NCBI GenBank assembly: GCA_013178415.1
Contig: JABLXA010000005.1
Coordinates: 71,369-135,368, forward strand
Length of the DNA stretch: 64,000 nucleotides
Origin: Bacillota bacterium
Lineage (GTDB): Bacteria; Bacillota; SHA-98; Ch115
Reading direction: 5' to 3'
Of this stretch, positions 2,838-61,779 are shown one piece after another (positions within the stretch are counted from its first letter, which is position 1; each line of letters starts with the position of its first letter). The notes below the pieces were generated by a model. That model did not search any database. It was given only the letters and a program-made list of their open reading frames with translations, and had not been told where the DNA came from. Position numbers and translations under genes: made by a program.

Positions 2838-2915
2838 ACACCAAAAGCTCCCTGCCGGCACAGGCCGACAAGGAGCGAACTCTTTGGTTCTTCCCTTGCC
2901 AGCCTCTCTGGACTG
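2838..2915 (-). promoter_or_regulatory. PyrR-binding loop plus intrinsic terminator (pyr attenuator) between pyrR and pyrB
   Basis: Minus-strand RNA just after the pyrR stop contains UCCAGAGAGGCUGGCAAGG, the conserved PyrR binding-loop sequence. It is followed by a 12-bp GC-rich hairpin CUCCUUGUCGGC-CUGU-GCCGGCAGGGAG and then CUUUUGGUGU. Confidence 0.65.
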
Positions 2916-2934
2916 ATTTAAAGGGTCTCTATTT

Positions 2935-48991: not shown

Positions 48992-49047
48992 ATCCAGTCA
49001 CCATCCTTATGCCACGCAGGGGTCCTTGTATCTTCATGCGTGGGGGT

Positions 49048-51786
49048 CTATGACTTTTCTAGGATGCCAACCTGCTCAAGCCAGTATTTCATCAATTCTC
49101 TAGCTATTGGGGCTGCCACGAGCCCACCTGAGCCCCCATTCTCCACCACAACGGACACCGCAATCTGTGGGTCACGGGCAGGCGCAAAACCGATGAACCA
49201 GGCATGGGGCGGACCTGCTGGATTCTGTGCCGTTCCGGTTTTGCCAGCCACCTCGATACCTGGAATCGCGGCTAGCCTCCCTGTACCTTTCGAAACCACA
49301 TCAACCATCATATCACGAATCACCCCGGTAGCGGTAATGGAAGATACCCGCCTGAAATGAGGCCCAATCTTCGCAGCCGAACCAGGCCGGCGTCCGTGTG
49401 GCACTATATCCATGATTATTCTAGGTTCTGGCATCATCCCACCCATTGAGATAGCCGCGGCCACCTGAGCCATAAACAGTGGGGTCACCAGTGTCTCTCC
49501 CTGCCCTATGCCGCTCTCGGCTATGAGACTCCTGGACATGGCCTTCTCCAAAGGGAACCTGGGAGCTGATGCCGGTATTTCTAGAGTTGGCTTCATATGG
49601 AAACCCCATGCTTTCATGGCCTCTTTGAGCGTTGCCTCACCGCATATCTCGGCGATCTCTACAAACGCGACATTGCATGAGCGGGCCAGGGCCATATCCA
49701 GGGTTACCTTTCCATGCCCCTTGCCGTTCCCGCCGGGACCAGGGCAAGATATGACCTGCCCGTCAATCATGATGCTTCCGTTACATTCAAAGGTATCATC
49801 AGCCCTGATCTTGCCTGCATCAAGAGCTGCTATCGCGATAATGGGCTTTAAAGCTGAACCAGGTGGATAGAGCCCTTGAGTAGCCCTATTCAGCAAGGCC
49901 CTCCTTGGGTCGCTCGCGAGCTCATTCCAGGTTTCATCAAGCCTGCATGGATCAAAACCAGGCTCGCTCACACAAGCAAGTATATCCCCTGTGGCTGGAA
50001 AAATGGCCACTATTGCGCCTGGCCTGCCCCGGAGCAGTCTCTCACCTAATTTTTGGAGACCGAGGTCGATGGTGAGAAGAACATCTTTTCCTCGATGCGG
50101 CGGCTGGATCAGAAAATCATCCAGGCCGAGAAGCTCCTTGTTATATGCGGCCTCTATGCCGCTTTTCCCATACCTCGAATGACTATATCCAATGACCTGC
50201 GCAAGAGACTCGGGCACGGTATATCTCCTGATAGGTTTATCTCCTATGACCTCTGAAAACGCAAGGATCTCCCCCCGGCGCGCAAGGATCGAACCCCTTA
50301 TGATCCTTTCTTCCGCGCGCGCCATTCTAGGGTTCTGTGGATCCGCGGCTAGATAGCGGAAACCTGCGCCAGCATAATAGGCCATCACGACAGCGACTAT
50401 GGCAAGTCCACCTGCAGTGAAACCCAAAAACCTCCGGCATGCCTCTTGTATCCCGGGACGGTCGTATCCAGCTTGTTCAACTGCCCCGCTACCCACGCCC
50501 CCAATCCTCGCCAAGATTCCCAGCGCCCCGAAGCATGTTACCATGGAGCTTCCGCCATAGCTGATGAAGGGAGTCGTAACTCCTGTCATAGGAATGATCC
50601 TGAAAACCCCGCCCAATATGATGAGTGTCTGCAGGGAAAATAAGACGCTTATCCCCCCGGCCAAAAGGGCCCCAAATTCGTCAGAGGAGTTCATCGCCCG
50701 GCCAATTCCTTCGGCTGCAAGATAGAAGTATGCCATTAATACCGGAGCTCCCACGATGATGCCAAACTCCTCTAGCAGCGCAGAGAATATGAAGTCCGTC
50801 TCCACTGCCGGTATGGCACGGGGCAGTCCCGCTCCTGGTCCAACTCCTGTGATGCCTCCGGCAGCGATAGCATAGAGTGATTGAATCATCTGGTAACCGG
50901 CTCCCTTGGGGTCTCTCCAGGGATTCAGCCAGACGAGAACACGGTTTCGCACGTGCCCAAAGAGGAGATAGCTCAAAACTCCTCCACAGGCTATCAAAAA
51001 CAGGCCCAGCGCCAAATAAGATGATCTGCCGCTGGCAAGGTAGAGCATCGAAAGATAGACAGCGAATAGCAACAGGGCCGTGCCGAGGTCGCGTTGGAAC
51101 ATAAGGAGCAAAAGGGAGATTCCCCATATGAGAAACATGGGTCCCACATACCCAATCTCTGGCACGAGAACCCCCATTATCCGGCGAGTAGGCGCAGATA
51201 AAAGCCTTCGCGCCTCTGTCAGATACCCGGCTAAGAATATTACCATCAGGGGTTTGGCAGGTTCCGATGGCTCAAGGCTCACCCCGAAGAGCTGGACCCA
51301 GGACTTAGCGCCTCCTATTTCGCGTCCGAAAAGAGGGCCAAGCGCCAAGAGAATGCAAGCAGCCACTCCTATGACATACCGGTATTGCTGCAGCCACGTA
51401 TAGTCTCTTGCCACGCTGGCAACGATGAAGAATACGGCCAGACCGAGGGATATCCATGATAATTGACGCCATATGAGATCCGGCCTCAATCGATATATCT
51501 CAAATAAGCTGATACCACAGAGAAATATGGCGATAGGCAGCAGCGCCTTATCCCTTACCTTGAGCACCTTTTCCTCGATGCTAAGGGCTATAAGGGATGC
51601 CAAGGCAAATATGACCGGTATTGTCCAGTGCCAGCCATCCCCCGTGGCCCCCTGGGCTATCTTTACGCAGATAAAACCTATTGTTCCGGGGAGTATGCAC
51701 AGTCCTGCCAGATTCCATCCGGCAACCTTCCCATTAGACCATAGACCCAACTTCAAGACCCCCGCGCCATCGCATATGCGGTTCAA
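49048..51786 (-). CDS. natural in-frame fusion: SEDS glycosyltransferase (RodA/FtsW-like, aa 1-430) plus class B PBP transpeptidase (aa 453-912)
   Basis: Single 912-aa ORF. The N-terminal half has SEDS hallmarks through PFISYGGSSMV. A 20-aa cytoplasmic linker (about nt 50430-50496) leads into a new TM helix (FLGFTAGGLAIVAVVMAYYAGAGF). Then comes a PBP dimer domain and a transpeptidase with SALKP (SxxK), SCN (SxN) and KTGT. Confidence 0.8.
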   Translation of the reverse strand: MNRICDGAGVLKLGLWSNGKVAGWNLAGLCILPGTIGFICVKIAQGATGDGWHWTIPVIFALASLIALSIEEKVLKVRDKALLPIAIFLCGISLFEIYRLRPDLIWRQLSWISLGLAVFFIVASVARDYTWLQQYRYVIGVAACILLALGPLFGREIGGAKSWVQLFGVSLEPSEPAKPLMVIFLAGYLTEARRLLSAPTRRIMGVLVPEIGYVGPMFLIWGISLLLLMFQRDLGTALLLFAVYLSMLYLASGRSSYLALGLFLIACGGVLSYLLFGHVRNRVLVWLNPWRDPKGAGYQMIQSLYAIAAGGITGVGPGAGLPRAIPAVETDFIFSALLEEFGIIVGAPVLMAYFYLAAEGIGRAMNSSDEFGALLAGGISVLFSLQTLIILGGVFRIIPMTGVTTPFISYGGSSMVTCFGALGILARIGGVGSGAVEQAGYDRPGIQEACRRFLGFTAGGLAIVAVVMAYYAGAGFRYLAADPQNPRMARAEERIIRGSILARRGEILAFSEVIGDKPIRRYTVPESLAQVIGYSHSRYGKSGIEAAYNKELLGLDDFLIQPPHRGKDVLLTIDLGLQKLGERLLRGRPGAIVAIFPATGDILACVSEPGFDPCRLDETWNELASDPRRALLNRATQGLYPPGSALKPIIAIAALDAGKIRADDTFECNGSIMIDGQVISCPGPGGNGKGHGKVTLDMALARSCNVAFVEIAEICGEATLKEAMKAWGFHMKPTLEIPASAPRFPLEKAMSRSLIAESGIGQGETLVTPLFMAQVAAAISMGGMMPEPRIIMDIVPHGRRPGSAAKIGPHFRRVSSITATGVIRDMMVDVVSKGTGRLAAIPGIEVAGKTGTAQNPAGPPHAWFIGFAPARDPQIAVSVVVENGGSGGLVAAPIARELMKYWLEQVGILEKS

Positions 51787-52490
51787 ACTCGGGCTATAAC
51801 TACCGTGATATTATCATGGCCTCCCCTTTCATTGGCGAGATCTACGAGAAAATCCGCAAGTTCTTGTGGATCCTCGATTCTCTTCAGAGCGCCCAGGATT
51901 TCTCCGTCAGAGACCATGCCCGTAAGCCCATCGGTGCAGAGAATTACTCGATCATCTTTCCCGATTTCCACTTTTAAGAGGTCCGGGATCAAGACGGGCT
52001 CCACCCCAAGGGCCTTTGTAATGATATTACGATGAGGATGAAATCTTGCCTCCTCTTCTGTAAGGCTTCCGCTCCTCACAAGCTCCGCGACGATTGAGTG
52101 ATCATCTGTGACCCTCTTCAAAACCCCATGAGATTCAATGTAGGCGCGGCTATCACCCACATGTCCCAAGTAAATGTAACCGTCCGTCAGCGCAGCTGCT
52201 GTGAGAGTGGTTCCCATTCCCCGCCTTTGAGGGTTACTGAGAGATAGCTCATAAACTTTAGCATTTGCATAATGAATGGCCTCATTCAGCCATCCTTCCG
52301 GATCACCAGACCAGACTGGCAGCCTGTCTTTCATCGTCTGGCAAGCTATCTGGCTTGCCACCTCCCCAGCCTGATGCCCCCCCATGCCATCAGCGACCAC
52401 CAGCAAGGATTCACTTACAAAATATGAATCTTCATTTACTTCCCTTACCCGGCCTATGTCGGAGCGCACGCCCAGTTTCATGGCACTCAC
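51783..52490 (-). CDS. prpC: PP2C-family Ser/Thr phosphatase (PrpC/Stp/PstP-like)
   Basis: MKLGVRSDIGRVREVNEDSY...VADGMGGHQAGEVAS, typical PPM motifs. Confidence 0.85.
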   Translation of the reverse strand: MSAMKLGVRSDIGRVREVNEDSYFVSESLLVVADGMGGHQAGEVASQIACQTMKDRLPVWSGDPEGWLNEAIHYANAKVYELSLSNPQRRGMGTTLTAAALTDGYIYLGHVGDSRAYIESHGVLKRVTDDHSIVAELVRSGSLTEEEARFHPHRNIITKALGVEPVLIPDLLKVEIGKDDRVILCTDGLTGMVSDGEILGALKRIEDPQELADFLVDLANERGGHDNITVVIARV

Positions 52491-52972
52491 TCCTTGAGTT
52501 CAAGCATTGTATCCCCTATCAGCAATTGATCGCCTGGTTTGAGAATGGTTCTGCGCCTGAGTCTGCGACCATTGACCAGCGTGCCATTCTTGCTGCCATT
52601 ATCCTCTATGAAGAATTTCCTACCTTTTCGGTAAAGAATGGCATGCCGCCATGACGCGAAAATATCTTTGATTACTATGTCACAGTCCGGCGCCCTACCT
52701 ATGACCATCCTGTCTGCCAAGAAAAACGTTGCGCCGGCTGGAGGATCTCCAGAGGTGCTTATTACAACGATCCTGGGCCCGGATTCCTCCCCGGCTATCC
52801 CCTCCCTGCCGGCTCCGCGCCATGTTCGTATGTGATCGGAAGCATTCTCTGAATGGAAATGGACTGACGTTCCCGTCACGCCAGCCATCACCTCGCGGGC
52901 GAGCCGCCACAAAAATGCGTATATTACGGCAATCAAGAGGAAGCGCCACGCTACCATCAGAAGGGCTAGCAT
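52487..52972 (-). CDS. FHA-domain membrane protein (FhaB/FipA-like)
   Basis: N-terminal TM helix and a C-terminal FHA domain (VIGRAPDCDIVIKD...SWRHAIL...EDNGSKNGTLVNGRRL). Confidence 0.75.
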   Translation of the reverse strand: MLALLMVAWRFLLIAVIYAFLWRLAREVMAGVTGTSVHFHSENASDHIRTWRGAGREGIAGEESGPRIVVISTSGDPPAGATFFLADRMVIGRAPDCDIVIKDIFASWRHAILYRKGRKFFIEDNGSKNGTLVNGRRLRRRTILKPGDQLLIGDTMLELKE

Positions 52973-53791
52973 TCATGATCCCTCCTGGCGCCCAACTCCA
53001 TTCCTGAATTCAAGCAAGACCCCGCCGAGTTTGATGGAATCCCCCGGGCTTAGAACATGCTCGCCCACTCGTCGTTCATTGACAAATGTGCCATTCATGC
53101 TGTTGAGGTCCCGCAAGATGAAAGCCCCTTGTCTATGCAGGATTTCCGCGTGTTCCCGCGAGACGCCAGGGTCAGGTATGACTATGTCATTGGATCTAGA
53201 ACGTCCCAGGCTGACTCGATCTTCGCTGAGCGGATACTGGCTGCCTGAGAGTTCGCCAGACATTATAATCAAGTAGGGACTATCTTCCCTTATTGCCTGC
53301 CCGGGCTGTGCGGGTGGCACACGGTTGAATTCCTTTGTGATCTCTCCCGACCTGGATGTAGCTCCATCTGCATCCACGGGCCCCCCATCTGGATACGCCC
53401 CGATCTCGAGGAGAGTTGCATCTTCCACATACGCAGGCTCTACCTTTATCTCACCGGCCTTCAGGGAGCTTTCCTCAATAAAGGAAATCTCCCGGGGCCC
53501 CACAAATGAATAGCCTCGCCTTTTTGCCTGCATTTCGATGTACGAGCAAAGCTCACGCGAGACAGTGCGCTCAAGGGGTCTGATTTTCTCGACACTGTGA
53601 GGGTGCATCATCACCTTGTAGCAATTTGGAACATATATCCTTGATACACTGACCCGTTTTTCATCTTCCATAGCTCTCATTATGTGCCGCGCAATCTCGA
53701 TAGGATGTGTGCTATAACGATCCCCGCTGTAGAAGAGCTTCCTCATGGCTTCCTCAATGCCTCGTTCTATTTTCTTGAAGAAACCACTCAT
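52973..53791 (-). CDS. FhaA-like protein (DUF3662 N-domain plus C-terminal FHA)
   Basis: N-terminal MSGFFKKIERGIEEAMRKLF... resembles the FhaA N-domain. C-terminal FHA (VSLGRSRSNDIVIPDPGVSREHAEIL...NSMNGTFVNERRV). Confidence 0.75.
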   Translation of the reverse strand: MSGFFKKIERGIEEAMRKLFYSGDRYSTHPIEIARHIMRAMEDEKRVSVSRIYVPNCYKVMMHPHSVEKIRPLERTVSRELCSYIEMQAKRRGYSFVGPREISFIEESSLKAGEIKVEPAYVEDATLLEIGAYPDGGPVDADGATSRSGEITKEFNRVPPAQPGQAIREDSPYLIIMSGELSGSQYPLSEDRVSLGRSRSNDIVIPDPGVSREHAEILHRQGAFILRDLNSMNGTFVNERRVGEHVLSPGDSIKLGGVLLEFRNGVGRQEGS

Positions 53792-54975
53792 TGCAATTCC
53801 TTCCCCGGCATATTATGGCTCCCATACGAGACACCGGCATGTTCACCGGCATCTACGGAATAAAATCTACGCCGTAGCTGCCCGCATGCAGCATCGATGT
53901 CCTCTCCAAGGGCGCGTCTGACCGTGACATTGATTCCGCTGGCTCTCAACACCTGGGCAAATGCCCTGATTCGTTCGGGACTGGACCTTTCAGGTTCCCC
54001 TCCATTTACCGGATTCACAGGTATAAGATTCACATGGCACAGCATACCAGATAAAAGCGCGGCGAGTTCACGCGCGTGGTTTAGGCCATCATTTAGCCCT
54101 CTCATGAGGGAGTATTCGAAAGTCACCCGCCTCCCGGATGCGGCTATGTATTCCTTACACGCTTCAAGGAGCAGCGCTATTGGATATCGCCTGTTTATAG
54201 GCATTATCTCATCACGAATATCATCAGATGGAGCATGGAGCGATACTGAAAGGGTAATCGGGAGTCCCTCTCTGGCCAGTTTATTGATCCCCGGCACGAT
54301 TCCGCAAGTAGATATGGTCATGCGCCTGAAACCAATGTCTAATCCCATCGGCTCGTTCATGAGCTTCAAAAACCTCAAGACATTATCGTAATTATCCAAG
54401 GGCTCACCCGAACCCATCATCACGATATTGCGAACCCGGCCTCCGATTTCTCGTACATCTTTGTCTATGATACCCATAAGATCCACCATCTCTCCAGCAC
54501 GGAGGTTTCTCACAAAACCGGACATCCCGCTGGCACACATTCTACAGGCCATCTTGCACCCAATCTGACTAGAGATACATGCCGTGATGCCATACTCATA
54601 TTTCATTCGAGCGGCTTCCACCGCATTCCCATCATCAAAGCCAACAAGGTACTTAACCGTACCGTCCCTAGATTCCTGCTTTGCTAGCACACGTGCGGGT
54701 CGAACATCGACCAGACTCGAAAGCTCCTCTCTGAGGTCCAGGGGCAGATCGGTCATCGAGTAAAATGAAGTCTCATGGTTTCTGTGGATCCACCTGAAGA
54801 CCTGACGTCCTCTATAACGTGGCAACCCCAGCCGGTCAAAGAGATCTTCTAGCTCACCCGGGAAGAGCCCCATAAAATCCACCGACCTGAGATCAAAATC
54901 CTGTTGCATTCTTGTCCCCTCTCGCAAGCCTGCTCCCTCGGGCACAGGATGGCTTATGCCATTCGATTCATACAT
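53788..54975 (-). CDS. rlmN: 23S rRNA/tRNA (adenine-C2)-methyltransferase RlmN (radical SAM)
   Basis: CKMACRMC CX3CX2C radical-SAM motif, RYRGRQVFRWI N-domain and C-terminal GQLRRR. The true start is probably internal (MQQDF near 54909). Confidence 0.85.
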   Translation of the reverse strand: MYESNGISHPVPEGAGLREGTRMQQDFDLRSVDFMGLFPGELEDLFDRLGLPRYRGRQVFRWIHRNHETSFYSMTDLPLDLREELSSLVDVRPARVLAKQESRDGTVKYLVGFDDGNAVEAARMKYEYGITACISSQIGCKMACRMCASGMSGFVRNLRAGEMVDLMGIIDKDVREIGGRVRNIVMMGSGEPLDNYDNVLRFLKLMNEPMGLDIGFRRMTISTCGIVPGINKLAREGLPITLSVSLHAPSDDIRDEIMPINRRYPIALLLEACKEYIAASGRRVTFEYSLMRGLNDGLNHARELAALLSGMLCHVNLIPVNPVNGGEPERSSPERIRAFAQVLRASGINVTVRRALGEDIDAACGQLRRRFYSVDAGEHAGVSYGSHNMPGKELQ

Positions 54976-55687: not shown

Positions 55688-55875
55688 CCGGGGTGCGACG
55701 GTATCCCTTCCGCCGGACGCAGCATGACCGGGGTATGGATACTCCTCCCGGCGGACGCAGCCTTGCTGCGAGGCTGCTCAGTGATCCTCGGCCCTCAGGT
55801 TATATGGCCTCGGATCAATGCCGCCGATCGGAGTATCTTAACCCCGGATCTGCCGACCACGGATCAATGCCATCC
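55688..55875. repeat. imperfect tandem direct repeats in a convergent intergenic region
   Basis: A 34-36 nt unit occurs twice at about a 40-nt period: 55688-55723 and 55728-55761 (CCGGGGT..CC(G)CCGGACGCAGC). A CGGATCAATGCC unit occurs at 55811 and 55860, with a related CCCCGGATCTGCC between them. Confidence 0.45.
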
Positions 55876-57359
55876 TAAAGCGCGATGCCTAGAAGCGCTA
55901 CCACCGCTAGGAGGATTTTGAGGAGTCCATTTTCTTTGCGAAGCCCTTGGATATCTTTAGCTACGCCGGCCTTGTATGTCTCAAAATCCGAGGAAAGCTG
56001 CCCAAGCTTGGCGTCTATGGCACCATCGGCAGAGATCCTGGCAGCGCGTTCATTCGCTATAACATCTTGCAGGCTCTTCTCAAATCCAGCAACTTGGTTT
56101 CCGATTGCATCCATCCTGCTATTCAAGTCTGCAATCTTTTGGCTCAGCTGAGTGATGCTCTCATTTGCGCTGGCTAGCTCTTTATCTAATCTTTCGCCTA
56201 GAGCGCGAGACTCGCTAGCTGTGTCGGAAAGGCCCTTTTCCAGCGCATCGACTCGACCGGACACCCCGGAAAGGTCCTGTTTGGCATTGGCTAGATCCTG
56301 GGTGACGGCCTTGAGATCTTGAGCGGTAGACTCAAGCTTGGCGGAGAGGTCGGCAAGCTGCGTGCCATGAGCATCTTGTTTTGCCTTGATGTCATCCTGC
56401 TTTGTCCTGATATCGTCTATCTGGGATGAGAGAGCGTCTGCGCGTCCAGAAAGCTCATCGACCTTCGTCGTAAGATCCCTTATGGCGGTCTCTGCCTGAT
56501 TGGCCCGGTTCGCCAACTCCTTCGCGGTTTCCTCCGTTTGATCAGCCCGGCTCGCCAGAGCCTTCGACTCCTTATCCAGGCTGACTACAGCGCCCTGGAG
56601 ATTATCTACTCTTGCCTGCGTCTCAGTGGATTTAGACTCCAAGGCATCGACGCGCCCAGTCAGACTGTTCAAGCCATCATCTAGCTGGCCTGTCTGTTCT
56701 GAAAGCTTATCCACCCGGCTGGAAAGATCAGCCTGGCCCCGGGACAACTCAGCGGACTTTGCCGCCAAAGCCCTCAGTTGATCCTCATGAGAAACATCTG
56801 CAGCGGCCATCTTGCTTTCCAGAGCGGCTATCCTCTCCTCTGCACCGGTCTTTGTGGCCTTCAACTCTTCCCTCAAAGCCTGCAGATCTTTGACTATCTT
56901 TTGAGCTTGCTTCTGTGCCTCTTGCGCATCATAGGTAGCCTTCAGGACATCCTCCTTCATGACACTCAGTACTTTGTTCTGGGACTCAATCTGTTTATCC
57001 ATATTTTCAAGCTGAGTCCCCATTGATACAAGTTCCTGACGAAATTCAGATGAAAGCTGCCTTAGAAGCTGGACATCGCCGGTGGACGCGGCAACCTTGC
57101 CGCTGGCAATCTCATTTAACATCCGCGCGATTACTACGGCCAGGGTATAGCGGTCCACTGGCTTGTTCCCCTGGAATGTCCCATCCTGATATAAAGATAT
57201 GTACCCTTTGTCCACCAGTAGCTTGACGCTTGAATATGCCCAATGATCTGGCGGGACATCCTTGATTTGTTCAGCCATGGCCATAGATCCTGCTAGAAAT
57301 ATTGTCAGCGAAATGATCAACCACATGAATATGTGCTTATGCCTTGTAAATGCTCCCAC
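55875..57359 (-). CDS. Omp-alpha-like envelope spacer protein: signal peptide, SLH domain, about 380 aa coiled coil, C-terminal TM anchor
   Basis: SLH motif IKDVPPDHWAYSSVKLLVDKGYISLYQDGTFQGNKPVDRYTLAVVIARML. A long repetitive heptad-rich region rich in L/A/E/K/Q/S/D. The extreme C-terminus LLKILLAVVALLGIAL is hydrophobic. Confidence 0.7.
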   Translation of the reverse strand: MGAFTRHKHIFMWLIISLTIFLAGSMAMAEQIKDVPPDHWAYSSVKLLVDKGYISLYQDGTFQGNKPVDRYTLAVVIARMLNEIASGKVAASTGDVQLLRQLSSEFRQELVSMGTQLENMDKQIESQNKVLSVMKEDVLKATYDAQEAQKQAQKIVKDLQALREELKATKTGAEERIAALESKMAAADVSHEDQLRALAAKSAELSRGQADLSSRVDKLSEQTGQLDDGLNSLTGRVDALESKSTETQARVDNLQGAVVSLDKESKALASRADQTEETAKELANRANQAETAIRDLTTKVDELSGRADALSSQIDDIRTKQDDIKAKQDAHGTQLADLSAKLESTAQDLKAVTQDLANAKQDLSGVSGRVDALEKGLSDTASESRALGERLDKELASANESITQLSQKIADLNSRMDAIGNQVAGFEKSLQDVIANERAARISADGAIDAKLGQLSSDFETYKAGVAKDIQGLRKENGLLKILLAVVALLGIAL

Positions 57360-57375
57360 AAAAACACTCCTCCCT

Positions 57376-59481
57376 TCATTTTGATACCATCACGACTCCA
57401 TTTATGGCTCGCACAGGCACTTCACGCCCGTCAGCATTCAGTATGCGCGCATTGCTGATGGTAATGGTGGCCTTACCCACTGTCCTGGCAAGGAAATTGA
57501 TACATGCAAAGGTTCCGAAGACGTCTGCCGGCGCAGAGAGACGCCCCCCAATTGCATGCACCTGCCCGGGGACTTCAGATATGGTCCCGCCTCTCCACTC
57601 AGAGAGTTTGTCACCCTCGACGAATACCGTGCCCCTGGACACGCTGATCATCTGCAGGATATCCGGGTCATAGGCTATATCAAGCGTCCCCTTGAGGAAG
57701 TTCTTCACATTAGTGATCCGTATGTAGACAGGGAAGAAACTGCCTGCCTTGACAGGATTCTCGGGCGGCATCACTTCGATCCTGGGCTCGAGCCGTGGCA
57801 CTGCTATCCTGTAATCCATGAAGACTCCTTCTGTATTGTACGCCTCCACCTTTACCCCGCACTCAGCAAAAGAACCAGAATCTCTGGGTTCAAGCTGCCA
57901 CACTACCTTGTAGGACTGCTGGGGGTCCAATGGCCCAAGGAACCTTGAGGCTTTCTCATGGGGAGCCGGACCCAGGAGTGCCCCCCAGGACATCCTCGCC
58001 TGGACCCCATATGCTGTAGACCCGCCCACATTCTTGATGGTAGCGTAAATCTTGAATGGATCAGGGGAAAGCCGCTGATCGACAATCGATAGTTCTCTGG
58101 GGCCGCTCAAGGTGACCTGGAATTTCGGGGCCTCAAGAATGCGCACCTCTCTCGTAACCTGGTTCGGTTCAGCATTTTCGGCCTCTACCCTGACAGAATA
58201 CGAAAGAGTCTCTCCCGGCCTTCCTTTCGGGACCACATCCCAGACTACCTGAGACAATTCTCCCACCTTGAGAATCCCTAGGTCGCGGACCGGGGATTGT
58301 CCGGATTTCAAGCTGAGTCCCTCTGGTAGAGTTATGCTGACTCGTGTGCCAATGGCATCACCCTTCCCTGAATTTTCCACATAACATACAACAGGGAATG
58401 TTTTGGGCTGATCTTTGCCCACAGCCACCTCTGCAGGGGAACTTACCCCAAGAGAGAGATCCCCTGGCGATATACTTATCCCGCCAAGGCCATAGAGAGT
58501 GACATATTCACGTGACTCTCCGGGCGCAAGAGGTTTCGGATCCCAGAATAGAGCTATGGCACTATCCGGTTCATATTCTCCTTTCCTGATGAATTCCCGT
58601 CCGGGAGAAAAGTCGAAATCCCAGACCCCATCGGCAAGGCTCCCCCAATTAGATAGATAGACTCTGTCAGGAGGCGTGGCTCCTTGGCCAGATAATGTTC
58701 CCTGGCTTGTTACGCTTGGGGCGCTAAGTGAATCAAAGGCCTGCCAAAATTCAGGAATATCCGAGACTGTATATGCCGTGTCAGAAATTATGGCATCGCC
58801 CCTCACGCGGAAAGGAGCGCCGTCATTTGCGCCCAACATGGTATCCAACAGGATACGGACCCCTATCTCCCTGGGACTTGTCCCCTCATTAGTCACTACA
58901 TACCGAATCTCTGCAGTATCAAAAAGCCCCGTGGTGCTGCTCCGGACTATCCTGAGGGATTGGATCGCCTCGATATCCTTACTGTCGCCCAGTCTACAAA
59001 TGCTAACAATTTCCTTGCCGTCGACTATATGGGGCCGTGATATCATATCACCATATAAGCCCTTCTCGCCCGCACGCTTTTTTGTGGCTCCTCCATAACA
59101 ATAATCTTTACCATCGATCCGGATGGTGGTGAATGAGGTCCATGGGACCGGTCTGCCATATATTAAAGGCTTATTGTCATCCTCTGATTTTGTGGGATCC
59201 CCGCCTGTTGTATCAAGGGCAAACCTGCACGTGGCATCATCGGTATTATTGACGAACACACGAACATAGTCGTTTGAAAGGGAAACCAGTTCCCCGCCCT
59301 GAGCGCCGGCGCCACCAGAAAAGGCATCCAGCAAGATGAATATGAAAACGAGGATAATCAAGGCCCATTTGGCTCCAGATCGCCCTCCCCTGCAGTTCCT
59401 TCCCCGGGGCCGCGATTTTGTGAGCAGGTTATCGAACCAGGCCAGATCCCCTGAGTTTAAACATATACTTGCAGCCAGCAT
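57376..59481 (-). CDS. large secreted multi-domain beta-sandwich protein with a C-terminal cohesin-like module
   Basis: N-terminal signal anchor (WALIILVFIFILLDAF). Middle CARDB/DUF11-like beta-sandwich repeats (VSITLPEGLSLKSG...YSVRVEAENA; YATIKNVGGS...). The last ~135 aa show a cohesin-like pattern (PVKAGSFFPVYIRITNV...GTLDIAYDPDIL...ITISNARILNADGREVPVRAINGVVMV). Confidence 0.5.
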   Translation of the reverse strand: MLAASICLNSGDLAWFDNLLTKSRPRGRNCRGGRSGAKWALIILVFIFILLDAFSGGAGAQGGELVSLSNDYVRVFVNNTDDATCRFALDTTGGDPTKSEDDNKPLIYGRPVPWTSFTTIRIDGKDYCYGGATKKRAGEKGLYGDMISRPHIVDGKEIVSICRLGDSKDIEAIQSLRIVRSSTTGLFDTAEIRYVVTNEGTSPREIGVRILLDTMLGANDGAPFRVRGDAIISDTAYTVSDIPEFWQAFDSLSAPSVTSQGTLSGQGATPPDRVYLSNWGSLADGVWDFDFSPGREFIRKGEYEPDSAIALFWDPKPLAPGESREYVTLYGLGGISISPGDLSLGVSSPAEVAVGKDQPKTFPVVCYVENSGKGDAIGTRVSITLPEGLSLKSGQSPVRDLGILKVGELSQVVWDVVPKGRPGETLSYSVRVEAENAEPNQVTREVRILEAPKFQVTLSGPRELSIVDQRLSPDPFKIYATIKNVGGSTAYGVQARMSWGALLGPAPHEKASRFLGPLDPQQSYKVVWQLEPRDSGSFAECGVKVEAYNTEGVFMDYRIAVPRLEPRIEVMPPENPVKAGSFFPVYIRITNVKNFLKGTLDIAYDPDILQMISVSRGTVFVEGDKLSEWRGGTISEVPGQVHAIGGRLSAPADVFGTFACINFLARTVGKATITISNARILNADGREVPVRAINGVVMVSK

Positions 59482-59500
59482 AAGCGGAATCCTCCGTCAG

Positions 59501-60586
59501 TCATTCCGAGACGAGGGTTATGCCCCCAAATTGAACTGTTACCTTTTCCTTATCGAAACTGAATGCGACCCGGAGTCGGTAGGGAACTCCTATCCCCTTG
59601 AAAGACCAGCTTCCCTGCATCGTCCTGAGTGCTATAGTATCAATCCGCGCATCGCCAGACGAACTCGCTATCTTGACCCCCAGTAATTTGCCGTTTTGAT
59701 CTATCTCGGCAAGAGCCTCGACAACTCCCCCCACACCTTCATTTTGTGCGTCCTTTGGGTAGACTGGACGGACGCGGGATATTGCAAGCCCCTCACCAGT
59801 GCCGAAATCAGCGACATCAAGGCCCCTCCCGGCCGCATCTTCTTTGCCATTGCCTGCCCCCGGAGTTGTGTTCCCATTAGCGCCGGCTTTGCCGATCCCA
59901 GAACTCGCGCCCGGGCTGCCGTTTGCCGAGCCACCCTTCGCGCCGACACCAGCGCCTCCTTGTCCGGCGCCAGCTCCCGATGCGGCGGCAGGCTTCCCTC
60001 CACCCTCAGCAGGGCCGCTCGCTATGGTCTCCTCTCCGCCAGGGCTTGTCAGCACCTCAGGCTGCTGAACACGTTGTCCCGAAACCTGCCGCTCCACTGG
60101 AGCCTTCGCTGCTACAGGCGCAGGCCCGGCCTTATGTCTTCCTTCACCCTCAAATTTCGGTTCAGGCTGTGACTCGCGCTGTGTTTCAACCCTCGGGCTT
60201 GGCTCTGGTTCTGGTTCCTGTTTCATCACCGGCTCTTGTCCCGCTGCCTGATCCATCTTCTGTTTGGATTCAGGTTTCGGAACCGGCTCTTGGGATGGCG
60301 CCGCTGGTCCGGCAACCTTCTCCCTTTTCACTACAACAGTCGTAGAACCTTTTGAGCCTGATTTTTCAGCTACCCGCGAACCTTTGACTGAAACCGCCGG
60401 CAAAGAAGATTCCGGGCTCGCCTCGGCCAGGATGGCCTCCACAGTCGCCCCATACTCCACCGGATAAATATCCACAGGTGCCCTGAATCCGACCGGCGCC
60501 AAGAATATCACCAATATATGGAGGATTATGGAGACAGCTGTAGAGATACCCATCCGCCGGCCATATCCTGACTGCAGAGATCTCAT
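59501..60586 (-). CDS. tonB: TonB-family energy transducer
   Basis: N-terminal TM helix (ISTAVSIILHILVIFLAPV) and a Pro/Glu/Lys-rich then Gly/Ala-rich linker. C-terminal TonB-like domain (VRPVYPKDAQNEGVGGVVEALAEIDQNGKLLGVKIASSSGDARID...). Follows exbD with a 6-nt gap. Confidence 0.7.
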   Translation of the reverse strand: MRSLQSGYGRRMGISTAVSIILHILVIFLAPVGFRAPVDIYPVEYGATVEAILAEASPESSLPAVSVKGSRVAEKSGSKGSTTVVVKREKVAGPAAPSQEPVPKPESKQKMDQAAGQEPVMKQEPEPEPSPRVETQRESQPEPKFEGEGRHKAGPAPVAAKAPVERQVSGQRVQQPEVLTSPGGEETIASGPAEGGGKPAAASGAGAGQGGAGVGAKGGSANGSPGASSGIGKAGANGNTTPGAGNGKEDAAGRGLDVADFGTGEGLAISRVRPVYPKDAQNEGVGGVVEALAEIDQNGKLLGVKIASSSGDARIDTIALRTMQGSWSFKGIGVPYRLRVAFSFDKEKVTVQFGGITLVSE

Positions 60587-60592
60587 CTTCCA

Positions 60593-61003
60593 TCACCTCG
60601 CAGGCCGTCGATCGGCGGCCAGGGCGATACGAGAAGCTCCAACGTCGCGGGCAGTGTCCATGACTGCTATGATATCCTCATACAATACCTGGCGGTCAGC
60701 GCGAATTATGACTGTCTCACCCGGGTCTCGTGAAACATGCTCCTTGATCTGATCCCTAAGCTCGGGAATGGTAGTCCTCCTGCCATTGAAATATAGACGC
60801 CCGGTCCGGTCTATGCTGACTATCATCTGACCTGCCCTATATGGCGCTGCAGTAACCGCTCTGGGAAGATTGATCTGCAGGCCCGTGGGAGCGGTCTTGA
60901 AACTGGTAAAAAGTATGAAGAAGACGATGAGAAAAGTCATGACATCCATCAACGGTATGAGATTAATGGCCGGCAGCCTGCGCTTGCTTCGTTGAAACCT
61001 CAA
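60593..61003 (-). CDS. exbD: ExbD/TolR biopolymer transport protein
   Basis: 136 aa with INLIPLMDVMTFLIVFFIL TM helix and a conserved Asp. A periplasmic domain follows. Confidence 0.8.
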   Translation of the reverse strand: MRFQRSKRRLPAINLIPLMDVMTFLIVFFILFTSFKTAPTGLQINLPRAVTAAPYRAGQMIVSIDRTGRLYFNGRRTTIPELRDQIKEHVSRDPGETVIIRADRQVLYEDIIAVMDTARDVGASRIALAADRRPAR

Positions 61004-61586
61004 CAGGCCTCACCTCACCTGACAGGAGATTCACCAGTTCTGACGCAAAATCGCTCATGTCCCTCGCTCGTCGATCTATCATCCCGGAGATCCAGGTATG
61101 AAGAAGGACGGTCGGAGCTGCTATCATGAGACCGGCCGCTGTCGTTATCAAAGCTTCTGCGATCCCTGCGCTCAGGGCAGCAGGTTCAAGTAGATGAGCC
61201 TGAGTCGAAAGGACTTTGAATGAATCTATTATGCCAAGGACAGTTCCGAGGATTCCGAAGAGCGGGGCCACCGCGGCAATGGCTTCAAGCCACGACAGCC
61301 CGCGTTCCATCAAGTATATCTCCCTTTCTCCAGCGGAACGCAGCTGCTCCTCGATTTCTGATCTGGGTTTGCCATACATCATCAAGCCGGTGGTCATGAG
61401 AGCACCCATCTGGCCCCTGAACTGCTCGACTGCCGCTATTGCGTCACCGATCTTTCCATGCTCAAGGGCGATCGTCACTGCCCTCAGGGCACGATCTGGA
61501 TCTGATCTTGTGCGAATTAAGTAGTAGAGTCTTTCGAGAGTGATAGCAACGGCGAAAATAGAGCATAAAAGCAGCGGGACCATCAT
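60963..61586 (-). CDS. exbB: MotA/TolQ/ExbB proton-channel protein
   Basis: Three TM helices and the TolQ/ExbB C-terminal region. The start MMVPLLLCSIFAVAITLERL at 61586 follows GGGTGGA. The track ORF (to 61754) runs through an upstream TATAAT. Confidence 0.75.
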   Translation of the reverse strand: MMVPLLLCSIFAVAITLERLYYLIRTRSDPDRALRAVTIALEHGKIGDAIAAVEQFRGQMGALMTTGLMMYGKPRSEIEEQLRSAGEREIYLMERGLSWLEAIAAVAPLFGILGTVLGIIDSFKVLSTQAHLLEPAALSAGIAEALITTAAGLMIAAPTVLLHTWISGMIDRRARDMSDFASELVNLLSGEVRPVEVSTKQAQAAGH

Positions 61587-61779
61587 GGGTCCACCCATAA
61601 TCAAAATATCCACCATATTATACATAGCATGATGCCGCAAAGGTACATGCCCCCACCTGCATGGCGACAACCGGAGCCGAATGGGGCAGCGGCCTATCTC
61701 CCCCCTCATTGACTTTCTTCGACACCCTGTCCCAAGTTCCTGCAAAAATACCAAGCTTAATAGCCAGTGGTAAACTTTT

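What the first reader, a model, noticed from the sequence alone, without database searches (positions are those of the whole stretch)
55875..61586. exbB-exbD-tonB operon fused to an Omp-alpha-like SLH/coiled-coil spacer and a cohesin-like surface protein in a sporulating Firmicute
Five minus-strand genes with 6-19 nt gaps form one transcription unit: ExbB, ExbD, TonB, a 701-aa secreted multi-beta-sandwich protein, and a 494-aa protein built as signal peptide + SLH domain + ~380 aa coiled coil + C-terminal hydrophobic anchor. TonB/ExbBD classically energise outer-membrane receptors in diderm bacteria. Here they sit beside textbook endospore genes (spoIIGA, sigE, sigG, spoIIR, spoVS), and no TonB-dependent beta-barrel receptor is present. 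The last protein has exactly the architecture of Thermotoga Omp-alpha, which spans the periplasm from peptidoglycan to the outer sheath. This points to a PMF-energised, envelope-spanning assembly. It is possibly evidence for an outer-membrane or toga-like layer in this spore-former, or a novel TonB-powered surface display or uptake system in a monoderm.
Basis: partly seen in the sequence, partly recalled or inferred. Interest (0 to 1): 0.8.

Follow-up and report, generated by a model that had tools for sequence, protein, structure and literature searches.

The report
Receptor-less TonB envelope operon, diderm Firmicutes
A five-gene operon joining a proton-driven TonB-type motor to a sugar-binding-type periplasmic protein and a wall-anchored coiled-coil tether is real, is conserved in hundreds of double-membraned Firmicutes and in Margulisbacteria that seem to lack the usual TonB receptors, and may be their stand-in for the Tol-Pal envelope system.

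Summary
Five tightly packed minus-strand genes (55875-61616) encode ExbB/TolQ, ExbD/TolR, a TonB/TolA-type transducer, a 701-aa secreted beta-protein ("X") and a 494-aa protein built as signal peptide, SLH, coiled coil and hydrophobic tail. All domain calls pass curated thresholds or are backed by a confident AlphaFold model.

Three points are new. X has an N-terminal galactose-mutarotase-like supersandwich with no Pfam model, two Ig-like domains and a true cohesin. The same five genes, in the same order, occur in every one of 80 GTDB species loci with enough contig: Limnochordia, Halanaerobiales and unnamed Bacillota. They also occur in 6 of 6 Margulisbacteria-type loci examined.

These are diderm lineages, so the "spore-former with TonB" paradox dissolves. 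This genome most likely belongs to a Limnochordia-like diderm sporulating clade, and such outer membranes are already known.

The module itself is undescribed. Its ExbBD-TonB part was noted as receptor-less in Halothermothrix in 2009. The two partner genes appear in no paper I could find.

Best reading (inferred): a receptor-independent force-transduction system acting on an SLH-type wall tether, functionally analogous to Tol-Pal, which Terrabacteria lack. It is a new variant of a known kind. Interest 0.7.

The parts
   Evidence: Pfam MotA_ExbB 100.3 bits. NCBIfam best hits are TolQ (87 bits) then ExbB (65 bits), both below the equivalog cutoffs. The TM2 motif PLLGlLGTV and the TM3 motif GIAeALitTA are conserved in at least 60-90% of 68 orthologues. 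The start at 61616 rests on the conserved N-terminus MVDxLIxGGP.
60593..61003 (-). exbD/tolR-like stator subunit (136 aa), with the transmembrane Asp20 (codon 60944-60946)
   Evidence: Pfam ExbD 106.1 bits. NCBIfam best hits are TolR (71 bits) then ExbD (47 bits), both below cutoffs. The motif P-m-i-D-v, with its Asp, is conserved in at least 90% of 62 orthologues.
59501..60586 (-). TonB/TolA-type force transducer (361 aa), made of four parts. TM helix, residues 13-33 (60488-60550), with S-x3-H. A beta-prone D-box-like segment, about residues 38-53 (60428-60475). A Pro/Gly/Ala-rich linker. TonB_C domain (59504-59770).
   Evidence: TonB_C 41.0 bits against a cutoff of 24.6; TIGR01352 36.7 against 27.1. 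The S..lH motif in the TM helix is conserved in at least 80% of 66 orthologues. It is also present in Margulis-type proteins. The D-box comparison uses Loll 2024, PMC10907165, and is a positional resemblance only.
57376..59481 (-). Protein X (701 aa), made of five parts. Signal peptide or anchor, residues 37-59 (59305-59373). GalM-like beta-supersandwich, residues 63-345 (58447-59295). Ig-like domain 1, residues 348-450 (58132-58440). Ig-like domain 2, residues 454-561 (57799-58122). Cohesin, residues 567-700 (57382-57783).
55875..57359 (-). Omp-alpha-like tether (494 aa), made of four parts. Signal peptide, residues 1-29, AMA|EQ (57273-57359). A single SLH plus the conserved start of the stalk, residues 32-111 (57027-57266). 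Coiled coil, residues 93-470 (55950-57083). C-terminal hydrophobic tail, residues 478-494 (55878-55928).
   Evidence: SLH 34.6 bits against a cutoff of 20.8, plus many coiled-coil family hits. Residues 30-124 match the SLH-plus-stalk end of the SomB porin model at E 3e-13. AlphaFold2 helices 93-229, 233-327 and 334-493, pLDDT 70.5. The architecture is conserved in 66-81 orthologues with total length 158-839 aa.
61617..61779 (-). Intergenic region between the rimO stop and exbB; the likely promoter region of the operon
   Evidence: A 163-nt gap lies here, against gaps of 19 nt or less inside the cluster. No promoter was established: consensus scans do not exceed shuffles.

Best explanation
This is a receptor-independent TonB/TolA-type force-transduction module of diderm Terrabacteria. 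It works like Tol-Pal, not like nutrient-importing Ton.

**Shown by homology and conserved motifs.**
- ExbB5-ExbD2-type stators in the inner membrane convert proton flow into movement.
- The stators hold a TonB-like protein through its S-x3-H transmembrane helix.
- A long Pro-rich linker carries a TonB_C domain across the periplasm.

**Shown by strict co-inheritance.** The partners of that domain are not barrels but the two downstream products:
- X, a secreted protein with a carbohydrate-binding-type supersandwich, two Ig spacers and a cohesin.
- A tether with one SLH per chain. By analogy with OmpM it would trimerise, its SLH end would bind wall-linked polymer, and a coiled-coil stalk would end in a hydrophobic helix, presumably in the outer membrane as proposed for Thermotoga Omp-alpha.

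**Inferred mechanism.**
1. X binds the tether and/or cell-wall glycan.
2. The TonB_C domain captures a beta-strand of X or of the tether.
3. Motor-driven pulling releases, repositions or loads the SLH tether on the wall.
4. Outer-membrane-to-wall attachment can thus be remodelled during growth and division.

Gene by gene the layout parallels tolQ-tolR-tolA-tolB-pal.

**The organism.** It is most likely a Limnochordia-like, outer-membrane-bearing spore-former.
For: **Intact motor.** Curated-threshold hits. Conserved ExbD Asp, ExbB TM2/TM3 motifs, TonB S-x3-H and TonB_C across orthologues.

**Obligate linkage.**
- exbB and exbD are present in 71 of 71 loci with room upstream.
- A TonB-like ORF is present in all 71.
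- The SLH/cc gene is present in 77 of 77 loci with room downstream.
- Each locus is a different GTDB species.
- The same five genes occur in 6 of 6 Margulisbacteria-type loci despite 33-45% identity.
- The X gene tree recovers Halanaerobiales as one clade, which fits vertical descent.

**No barrel receptor.**
- None in the window and none among the recurrent neighbours.
- Halothermothrix orenii has ExbB, ExbD and a putative TonB together but no detectable receptor (PMC2626281).
- Among Firmicutes, Ton systems with receptors were found only in Negativicutes, and Tol-Pal only in Gracilicutes (PMC12204202).

**Partner properties.**
- X is secreted and has a GalM-like fold and a cohesin.
- The tether's N-terminus resembles the OmpM/Som SLH-plus-stalk, a trimeric wall-binding unit in OmpM (PMC10628300).
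- Omp-alpha homologues with the same SLH-plus-coiled-coil architecture are abundant in the toga and have been proposed to act like the SlpA/OmpM tether (PMC10160955).

**Other.**
- The best NCBIfam matches of the stator are TolQ and TolR rather than ExbB and ExbD.
- Envelope genes (LptF/G, Lnt) flank the Margulis-type clusters.
- The lengths of the TonB linker and the tether correlate weakly (rho 0.45).
Against: - No interaction among TonB_C, X and the tether has been shown or modelled.
- X has nothing in common with TolB (no propeller), and the tether is not an OmpA-like lipoprotein. The Tol-Pal parallel is positional and functional only.
- The membrane that holds the C-terminal helix is unknown. 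A Sec-exported protein with a C-terminal hydrophobic helix would by default stay in the inner membrane.
- Tether length varies five-fold (158-839 aa), which is odd for a fixed periplasmic spacer.
- The TolQ/TolR preference is below all equivalog cutoffs.
- The length correlation is not corrected for phylogeny.
- The absence of receptors was not checked genome-wide here. It rests on two papers and on local context.
- The outer membrane of this particular organism is inferred from relatives. No outer-membrane biogenesis gene lies in the 64-kb window.
- Presence or absence in Negativicutes, Cyanobacteria and other diderm Terrabacteria was not determined.
Confidence: 0.45

Rival explanations
1. 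Glycan capture or import. X uses its supersandwich to bind an oligo- or polysaccharide, and TonB energises its delivery or release. Passage would be through OmpM-type porins or the wall. This would be a Ton system with a soluble binding protein instead of a plugged barrel.
For: The N-domain has a carbohydrate-enzyme-associated fold with many invariant Asp/Arg/Trp/Tyr/Asn residues. Homologous N-domains occur in secreted and surface proteins of other phyla. Classical TonB function is uptake.
Against: No transporter, hydrolase or regulator is co-inherited with the cluster. The flanks are housekeeping, sporulation or envelope genes. A universal, single-copy, vertically inherited module fits a core envelope role better than a substrate-specific uptake system. 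The SLH tether has no obvious role in uptake.
Confidence: 0.15
2. Surface-display or S-layer/sheath anchoring system. The cohesin of X docks dockerin-like partners and the SLH protein fixes the assembly to the wall, as in cellulosome-anchoring scaffoldins. The motor drives export or positioning.
For: The cohesin is genuine, with best sequence matches to type II anchoring cohesins. Public annotation calls X a 'cellulosome anchor protein'. Cohesin-plus-SLH is the logic of anchoring scaffoldins. S-layers have been seen in cultivated Limnochordia.
Against: No dockerin gene is linked. The Pfam cohesin model finds no cohesin in two Margulis-type X proteins tested, while the N-domain is the conserved core. 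In diderms the SLH domains of OmpM-type proteins face the periplasm. No route to the surface is encoded.
Confidence: 0.12
3. Sporulation- or germination-linked machine, or a motility/deposition machine. One version: a Glt/Nfs-like machine that uses a TolQR-type motor and TonB-like proteins to move polymer or complexes around the cell or spore. Another: a helper for inner-to-outer-membrane remodelling in diderm sporulators.
For: In many Limnochordia the cluster lies between dacF-spoIIAA-spoIIAB-sigF-PHP and spoVAC/D/E. In Halanaerocella a Hydrolase_2-family (PF07486) gene follows it. The window also carries spoIIGA-sigE-sigG-spoIIR. From my own knowledge, Myxococcus Agl-Glt/Nfs shows that TolQR-type motors with TonB-like proteins can drive such processes.
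Against: Margulisbacteria carry the module; to my knowledge they do not sporulate. So does Halanaerobium (L075). The flanks differ between clades. No sporulation promoter could be recognised. No Glt/Nfs-like partners are linked.
Confidence: 0.08
4. Decaying remnant of an ancestral Ton system whose receptors were lost. The two downstream genes would be unrelated neighbours.
For: Williams-Jones 2025 regard Ton components in lineages without receptors as likely non-functional.
Against: Catalytic and coupling motifs are conserved in at least 80-90% of orthologues. Gene order has been kept across two phyla and more than 400 species. There are no frameshifts. The gaps are tight, with ribosome-binding sites.
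Confidence: 0.03

Closest known systems
Tol-Pal system (tolQ-tolR-tolA-tolB-pal-cpoB) of Gracilicutes
   Same: The operon logic and order match: stator pair, TonB/TolA-type transducer with an S-x3-H helix, a secreted beta-rich adaptor, then a non-covalent wall-binding protein that I presume is anchored in the outer membrane. There is no barrel receptor. It is near-universal and vertically inherited within its host clades. The stator's best NCBIfam matches are TolQ and TolR.
   Different: X is not a TolB: it has a GalM-like supersandwich, Ig domains and a cohesin rather than an alpha/beta domain plus beta-propeller. The tether binds the wall through SLH rather than an OmpA-like domain, and it has a helical tail rather than a lipid anchor. 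No CpoB or YbgC is present. Tol-Pal is reported only in Gracilicutes.
Canonical Ton system (ExbB-ExbD-TonB plus TonB-dependent transporters), e.g. E. coli or Veillonella parvula
   Same: The ExbB, ExbD and TonB_C domains are above curated thresholds. The TM Asp, S-x3-H and Pro-rich linker are present, as is a beta-prone segment at the D-box position.
   Different: No plugged 22-strand barrel is present in the window or among the conserved neighbours. Related genomes are reported to lack such barrels. Instead, two dedicated non-barrel partners are co-inherited.
Thermotoga Omp-alpha, and the OmpM/SlpA tether superfamily
   Same: It has an N-terminal single SLH followed by a long coiled coil, and it probably trimerises. 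Like Omp-alpha it lacks a barrel in the same chain and ends in a hydrophobic segment. Its N-terminal ~95 residues match an SLH-plus-stalk porin model.
   Different: No sequence homology to Omp-alpha was retrieved. No Omp-beta-like barrel gene is in the operon. Unlike OmpM/SlpA it has no C-terminal beta-barrel. It is always encoded behind a TonB-type motor, which to my knowledge and in the papers read is not described for Omp-alpha or OmpM.
Receptor-less motor-transducer families described by Williams-Jones et al. 2025 (vWA-domain transducers next to tolQR-like genes), and Myxococcus AglRQS-GltG/J
   Same: TolQR/ExbBD-type motors are coupled to non-TBDT outputs. This illustrates that 5:2 motors power diverse trans-envelope processes.
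   Different: Here the transducer keeps a genuine TonB_C domain. The output proteins (X and the SLH tether) and the host lineages (Terrabacteria) are different.
Cellulosome-anchoring scaffoldins (SdbA, OlpB, ScaB types)
   Same: A type-II-like cohesin fold and an SLH wall anchor appear in one functional unit.
   Different: The cohesin and the SLH are on separate proteins. No dockerin or cellulosomal genes are present. The unit is motor-linked and the hosts are diderm. The public name 'cellulosome anchor protein' is a similarity-based label.

Membership tests
MotA/TolQ/ExbB proton-channel family | Pfam PF01618 above the gathering score; conserved TM2/TM3 Thr-containing motifs | tested here: met
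   100.3 bits against 22.9. The motifs PLLGlLGTV and ALitTA are conserved in 68 orthologues.
ExbB or TolQ equivalogs (NCBIfam TIGR02797 / TIGR02796) | Score above the equivalog cutoff | tested here: not met
   TolQ 87.1 bits against a cutoff of 221; ExbB 65.4 against 206. The subfamily is unassigned.
ExbD/TolR family | PF02472 above the gathering score; protonatable Asp in the TM helix | tested here: met
   106.1 bits against 25.4. Asp20, in the motif PmiDv, is conserved in at least 90% of orthologues. The TolR and ExbD equivalog cutoffs are not reached.
TonB/TolA force transducers | N-terminal TM helix with the S-x3-H (SHLS-type) motif, an extended linker and a C-terminal TonB_C fold | tested here: met
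   TonB_C 41.0 bits against 24.6; TIGR01352 36.7 against 27.1. S..lH is conserved in at least 80% of 66 orthologues and is also present in Margulis-type proteins. The linker is Pro/Gly/Ala-rich. The E. coli TonB equivalog models are far below cutoff.
Canonical Ton uptake system | At least one TonB-dependent 22-strand plugged barrel with a Ton box | tested here: not met
   None is among the window's ORFs or the conserved neighbours in 80 loci. Literature reports none in H. orenii and none in non-Negativicute Firmicutes.
Tol-Pal system | TolB (TolB_N plus a six-bladed beta-propeller) and Pal (a lipoprotein with an OmpA-like wall-binding domain) encoded after tolA | tested here: not met
   X has no TolB, WD40 or PD40 hits, and its model is all beta-sandwich. 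The fifth protein has SLH, no OmpA domain and no lipobox. It is an analogue, not a member.
Cohesin domain family | Nine-strand jelly-roll recognised by PF00963; binds a dockerin | tested here: met
Galactose-mutarotase-like supersandwich (N-domain of X) | Fold similarity to aldose-1-epimerases and GH-associated N-domains; catalytic or sugar-binding residues | tested here: inconclusive
Thermotoga Omp-alpha | N-terminal SLH, a ~45-50 nm coiled-coil rod, a C-terminal hydrophobic segment, abundance in the toga/outer membrane, and association with a barrel partner | tested here: inconclusive
   The architecture criterion is met. Sequence homology was not retrieved: the search gave 16 hits, all from the same Bacillota clade. 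No barrel gene is in the operon. Localisation is not testable here.
OmpM/SlpA tether superfamily | [quoted passage not shown] | tested here: not met
   The SLH and stalk are present, and the SomB-model N-terminal match has E 3e-13. The remainder is helical to the C-terminus, with no barrel.
Diderm Firmicutes (host assignment) | Outer-membrane biogenesis genes (BamA, Lpx, Lpt, OmpM) in the same genome | not testable with these tools
   None lies in the 64-kb window. Host assignment is inferred from the restriction of named orthologues to Limnochordia, Halanaerobiales and Margulisbacteria and from the gene tree.

The most novel reading that the evidence does not exclude
The five-gene module is the Terrabacterial counterpart of Tol-Pal. 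It would be an ancient PMF-driven machine in which a TonB-like arm, through the glycan-binding/cohesin adaptor X, loads, releases or relocates SLH-type outer-membrane-to-wall tethers during growth and division. Motor-driven envelope maintenance would then not be a Gracilicute invention. It would have existed in a different mechanical form at or before the split of Firmicutes and Margulisbacteria/Cyanobacteria-line bacteria. Loss of this module could be one step in the diderm-to-monoderm transition.
Probability: 0.3. Interest if true: 0.85.

Novelty: new variant of a known kind. Interest (0 to 1): 0.7.

Why it matters
Tol-Pal is considered essential for outer-membrane integrity and constriction, but it is confined to Gracilicutes. 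How diderm Terrabacteria coordinate their OmpM/SLH-type tethers with growth and division is an open question.

Recent surveys concluded two things. Halanaerobiales and Limnochordia have no Ton system, and receptor-less Ton genes are probably vestigial.

The evidence here points the other way. These lineages and Margulisbacteria keep a strictly conserved motor-transducer operon with two dedicated non-barrel partners. That gives a concrete, testable candidate for a missing envelope machine.

It also offers:
- a possible marker for outer-membrane-bearing Terrabacteria in metagenomes;
- a new output type for ExbBD/TolQR 5:2 motors;
- a widespread unannotated secreted domain (the X N-domain, about 2,700 clusters at 50% identity);
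- evidence that the public label 'cellulosome anchor protein' for X is probably misleading.

Tried and rejected
1. **AlphaFold-database fold search.** The library was unavailable.
3. **Homology search with the 494-aa protein.** It returned 16 hits, all from the same clade, and nothing from Thermotoga.
4. **Promoter and terminator consensus scans, and an alignment of the regions upstream of exbB.** These gave no recognisable sigma-70 or sporulation promoter and no internal terminators above chance.
5. **Sporulation linkage.** I considered it because of the spoIIA/spoVA flanks in Limnochordia. I rejected it as a general explanation because the module is present in Margulisbacteria and Halanaerobium.
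6. **Coiled-coil length as a periplasmic ruler.** Lengths range from 158 to 839 aa. The correlation with TonB length is only weak and not corrected for phylogeny (rho 0.45). The AlphaFold monomer suggests three helical segments but has pTM 0.35, so the geometry cannot be trusted.
7. **Looking up names for 30 distant representatives**. Few carry names. This yielded the Margulisbacteria lead but no information on Negativicutes or Cyanobacteria.
8. **Literature searches** for any paper linking cohesin or SLH genes with ExbD/TonB, for Margulisbacteria plus TonB, and for UBA4981/UBA6811. These returned nothing relevant.
9. **Rfam.** It found nothing in or next to the cluster.

Full report

Yes. The minus strand between 55875 and about 61616 holds five ORFs. 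exbB and exbD overlap by 41 nt, and the other gaps are 6, 19 and 16 nt. A GGAGGA ribosome-binding site precedes the fourth gene.

- Profile searches place the first three products in MotA/ExbB (100.3 bits), ExbD/TolR (106.1 bits) and TonB_C (41.0 bits; TIGR01352 36.7 bits). All are above curated cutoffs.
- The fourth product hits Cohesin above threshold (28.8 against 24.1). It hits CARDB only below threshold.
- The fifth product hits SLH (34.6 against 20.8) plus dozens of coiled-coil families.
- An identical five-gene contig exists in a public read-set assembly, SRR6186653.
- Sporulation genes are present as claimed. spoIIR, sigG and sigE are above the NCBIfam cutoffs, spoIIGA has E 6.5e-43, and SpoVS has E 7.8e-40.
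- None of the roughly 60 genes in the window is a TonB-dependent barrel.
- Consensus scans find no excess of internal promoters or terminators.

One boundary correction is needed. Relatives conserve the N-terminus MVDxLIxGGP, so exbB most likely starts at 61616 rather than 61586.

**2. Anatomy of the parts**

*Motor.* ExbD keeps its transmembrane Asp, and ExbB keeps the Thr-containing TM2/TM3 motifs, in at least 60-90% of 62-68 orthologues.

*Transducer.*
- The TonB-like protein has a transmembrane helix with S-x3-H, the coupling motif shared by TonB and TolA. This motif is conserved in at least 80% of orthologues.
- A beta-prone segment sits at the position of the D-box described by Loll et al. 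2024 (PMC10907165).
- Then come a ~220-residue Pro/Gly/Ala-rich linker and TonB_C.
- NCBIfam ranks TolQ and TolR above ExbB and ExbD, but all four are far below the equivalog cutoffs. The subfamily is therefore open.

*Protein X.* I predicted its structure from an 87-sequence alignment. The model has pLDDT 90.1 and pTM 0.80.
- There are two Ig-like sandwiches in the middle.
- This N-domain holds most of the invariant residues. It has no Pfam or NCBIfam model.
- It is widespread: 2,674 clusters at 50% identity have E<1e-3. In other phyla it is fused to RHS toxins or to proteins with T9SS sorting tails.

*Fifth protein.*
- It has a cleavable signal peptide (AMA|EQ).
- It has one SLH and a conserved stalk start (D..LLr.Ls.EFR.ELV). 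This region matches the SLH-plus-stalk end of a cyanobacterial Som porin model at E 3e-13.
- It has about 380 helical residues in three segments (AlphaFold pLDDT 70.5, pTM 0.35).
- It ends in a 16-residue hydrophobic tail.
- One SLH per chain followed by a coiled coil is how OmpM forms a trimeric wall-binding unit (Silale 2023, PMC10628300).

**3. Relatives and distribution**

The 701-aa protein has 665 detectable homologues. Every named one among the best 120 is from Halanaerobiales (Frackibacter, Fuchsiella, Selenihalanaerobacter, Sporohalobacter, Halanaerobaculum, Halanaerocella, Halanaerobacter), from Limnochordia, or from an unnamed Bacillota/Firmicutes MAG.

A scan of one genome per GTDB species found relatives in 403 species. 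I analysed the best 80 loci.
- tblastn with the window's proteins found exbB and exbD in all 71 loci with room upstream.
- A TonB-like ORF fills the slot between exbD and X in all 71. It is found by tblastn in 53 and by the SxxxH and YPKNA...SSG..LD motifs in the other 18.
- The SLH/coiled-coil gene directly follows X in all 77 loci with room downstream.
- The flanking genes differ between clades.

Distant orthologues of X (~620-685 aa) led to Candidatus Marinamargulisbacteria and other Margulisbacteria.
- All six such loci I opened carry the same order: ExbB, ExbD, TonB_C (163-218 aa), X, then a 158-169-aa protein with signal peptide, SLH-like domain, short coil and hydrophobic tail.
- These loci sit next to LOG, RlmN, HolB, S21, LptF/G, a large TPR protein and Lnt.

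A neighbour-joining tree of X rooted on the Margulis-type sequences gives a monophyletic Halanaerobiales. It places the window's clade (50-62% identity; L002, L013, L003-L014, L031) beside the Limnochordia-type groups. That is the pattern expected for vertical descent.

**4.

The apparent paradox was a TonB system next to endospore genes. It is resolved by taxonomy. Halanaerobiales and Limnochordia are sporulating Firmicutes with LPS outer membranes (Antunes 2016; Witwinowski preprint; TEM of cultivated Limnochordia in Karnachuk 2024).

The window's organism most likely belongs to such a lineage. I could not confirm this directly, because no outer-membrane biogenesis gene lies in the window. 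The monoderm reading is not supported.

'Omp-alpha-like' is a fair architectural description (Sexton 2023, PMC10160955). No sequence homology to Omp-alpha was retrievable, however, and there is no partner barrel in the operon.

**5. Prior knowledge of the module**

- The Halothermothrix orenii genome paper noted ExbB, ExbD and a putative TonB side by side with no detectable receptor. It suggested 'a different function' (Mavromatis 2009, PMC2626281).
- Williams-Jones et al. 2025 (PMC12204202) found Tol-Pal only in Gracilicutes. Among Firmicutes they found Ton systems (tonB plus a receptor) only in Negativicutes. They regard receptor-less Ton genes as likely non-functional.
- Veillonella has canonical Ton clusters with receptors (Poppleton 2017).
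- I found no paper that links the cohesin-bearing protein or the SLH/coiled-coil protein to ExbBD-TonB.
- Public annotation calls X a 'cellulosome anchor protein' or 'cohesin domain-containing protein'.

**6. Mechanism**

*Shown.*
- The motor and transducer are intact and motif-complete.
- Two secreted partners are co-inherited with them across two phyla.
- No barrel receptor is linked.

*Inferred.* The TonB_C domain acts on X and/or the tether rather than on a barrel. The arrangement mirrors tolQ-tolR-tolA-tolB-pal position by position:
- stator pair;
- transducer;
- secreted beta-rich adaptor;
- non-covalent wall-binding protein, presumably anchored in the outer membrane.

I therefore favour a Tol-Pal-like role: PMF-dependent remodelling of SLH-type outer-membrane-to-wall tethering.

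*Weaknesses.*
- No interaction has been shown.
- X is unrelated to TolB and the tether is unrelated to Pal.
- The membrane that holds the tether's tail is unknown.
- Tether length varies five-fold.
- The correlation between TonB length and tether length is weak (rho 0.45) and is not corrected for phylogeny.

*Rivals.*
- Glycan capture or import via X.
- A cohesin-based surface-display or S-layer anchoring system.
- A sporulation- or deposition-linked machine. This is suggested by the spoIIA/spoVA flanks in Limnochordia but contradicted by the presence of the module in Margulisbacteria and Halanaerobium.
- A decaying remnant, which the conservation data contradict.

**7. Verdict**

- The module is not a member of canonical Ton (no receptor), Tol-Pal (no TolB or Pal) or OmpM (no barrel).
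- It is best filed as a new variant of the TonB/TolA-type force-transduction systems, with a novel and strictly conserved output pair.
- It is of real interest to envelope biologists because it supplies a candidate for the missing Tol-like function in diderm Terrabacteria.
- It also contradicts the view that Ton genes in these lineages are absent or vestigial.
- The function remains inferred.

Noticed in passing
window 47054-53791 (minus strand): This is an actinobacterial-style cell-wall signalling cluster. It holds FhaA (272 aa, FhaA_N plus FHA), FhaB-like FHA (161 aa), a PP2C phosphatase (235 aa), a single 912-aa ORF that fuses FtsW/RodA/SpoVE to a PBP transpeptidase, and a PASTA kinase (645 aa). 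The RodA-PBP fusion and this gene order in a Firmicute are unusual. RlmN and FHA genes also follow the TonB cluster in the window's clade (L003-L014).
   Followed up: partly
L083 1-15340 (Peptococcaceae bacterium 1109), and 24-32 other loci: In many Limnochordia the five-gene cluster, preceded by a PHP-domain gene, sits exactly between the dacF-spoIIAA-spoIIAB-sigF operon and the spoVAC/D/E operon. These are spoIIA- and spoVA-type operons. In Halanaerocella (L082) a PHP gene precedes the cluster and a Hydrolase_2-family (PF07486) gene follows it.
   Followed up: partly
window 58447-59295 (N-domain of the 701-aa protein); P0246, P0251, P0252: The N-terminal supersandwich is a widespread secreted domain with no Pfam or NCBIfam model: 2,674 clusters at 50% identity have E<1e-3. 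In other phyla it heads RHS-repeat toxins, and it also heads a protein with a dockerin and a T9SS sorting tail.
   Followed up: partly
window 61586-61625: There are four in-frame ATG codons (61625, 61616, 61598, 61586) at the start of exbB. Relatives conserve MVDxLIxGGP, which favours 61616. A perfect TATAAT lies at 61617-61622, immediately upstream of that ATG.
   Followed up: partly
window 55811-55822 and 55860-55871: A 12-nt direct repeat, GGCATTGATCCG as read on the minus strand, occurs twice 49 nt apart. It lies in the convergent intergenic region between the operon's last gene and the histidine-phosphatase gene. No Rfam family matches there, and there is no obvious terminator.
   Followed up: no
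L084-L089 and window 53788-54975: RlmN lies next to the cluster in both lineages. In Margulis-type loci it is divergent and upstream, after a LOG-family gene. In the window's Bacillota clade it lies about 1 kb downstream. This may be a remnant of ancient synteny. Margulis-type loci also keep HolB, S21, LptF/G, a ~800-aa TPR protein and Lnt downstream.
   Followed up: no
L004 (JBLNCC010000096.1) and L086 (GCA_042576685.1): These public records look mislabelled. A 'Betaproteobacteria bacterium' MAG carries the Bacillota-type cluster at 51% identity with the same rlmN/FHA synteny. A 'Thermoproteota archaeon' assembly carries the Margulis-type cluster beside bacterial FliF, FliG and Lnt genes.
   Followed up: no
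window 2841-2928 (minus strand): A PyrR-binding attenuator (Rfam RF00515, 56.3 bits against a gathering score of 54) lies upstream of the pyrimidine genes. It is the only Rfam match in the window.
   Followed up: no
loci L002-L089, TonB-like and SLH/coiled-coil genes: The two periplasm-spanning proteins change size together across lineages. In Margulis-type loci TonB is 163-218 aa and the tether 158-169 aa. In Halanaerobiales they are about 310-360 and 223-312 aa. In Limnochordia-type loci they are about 300-376 and 340-536 aa. Spearman rho is 0.45 over 57 loci, not corrected for phylogeny.
   Followed up: partly
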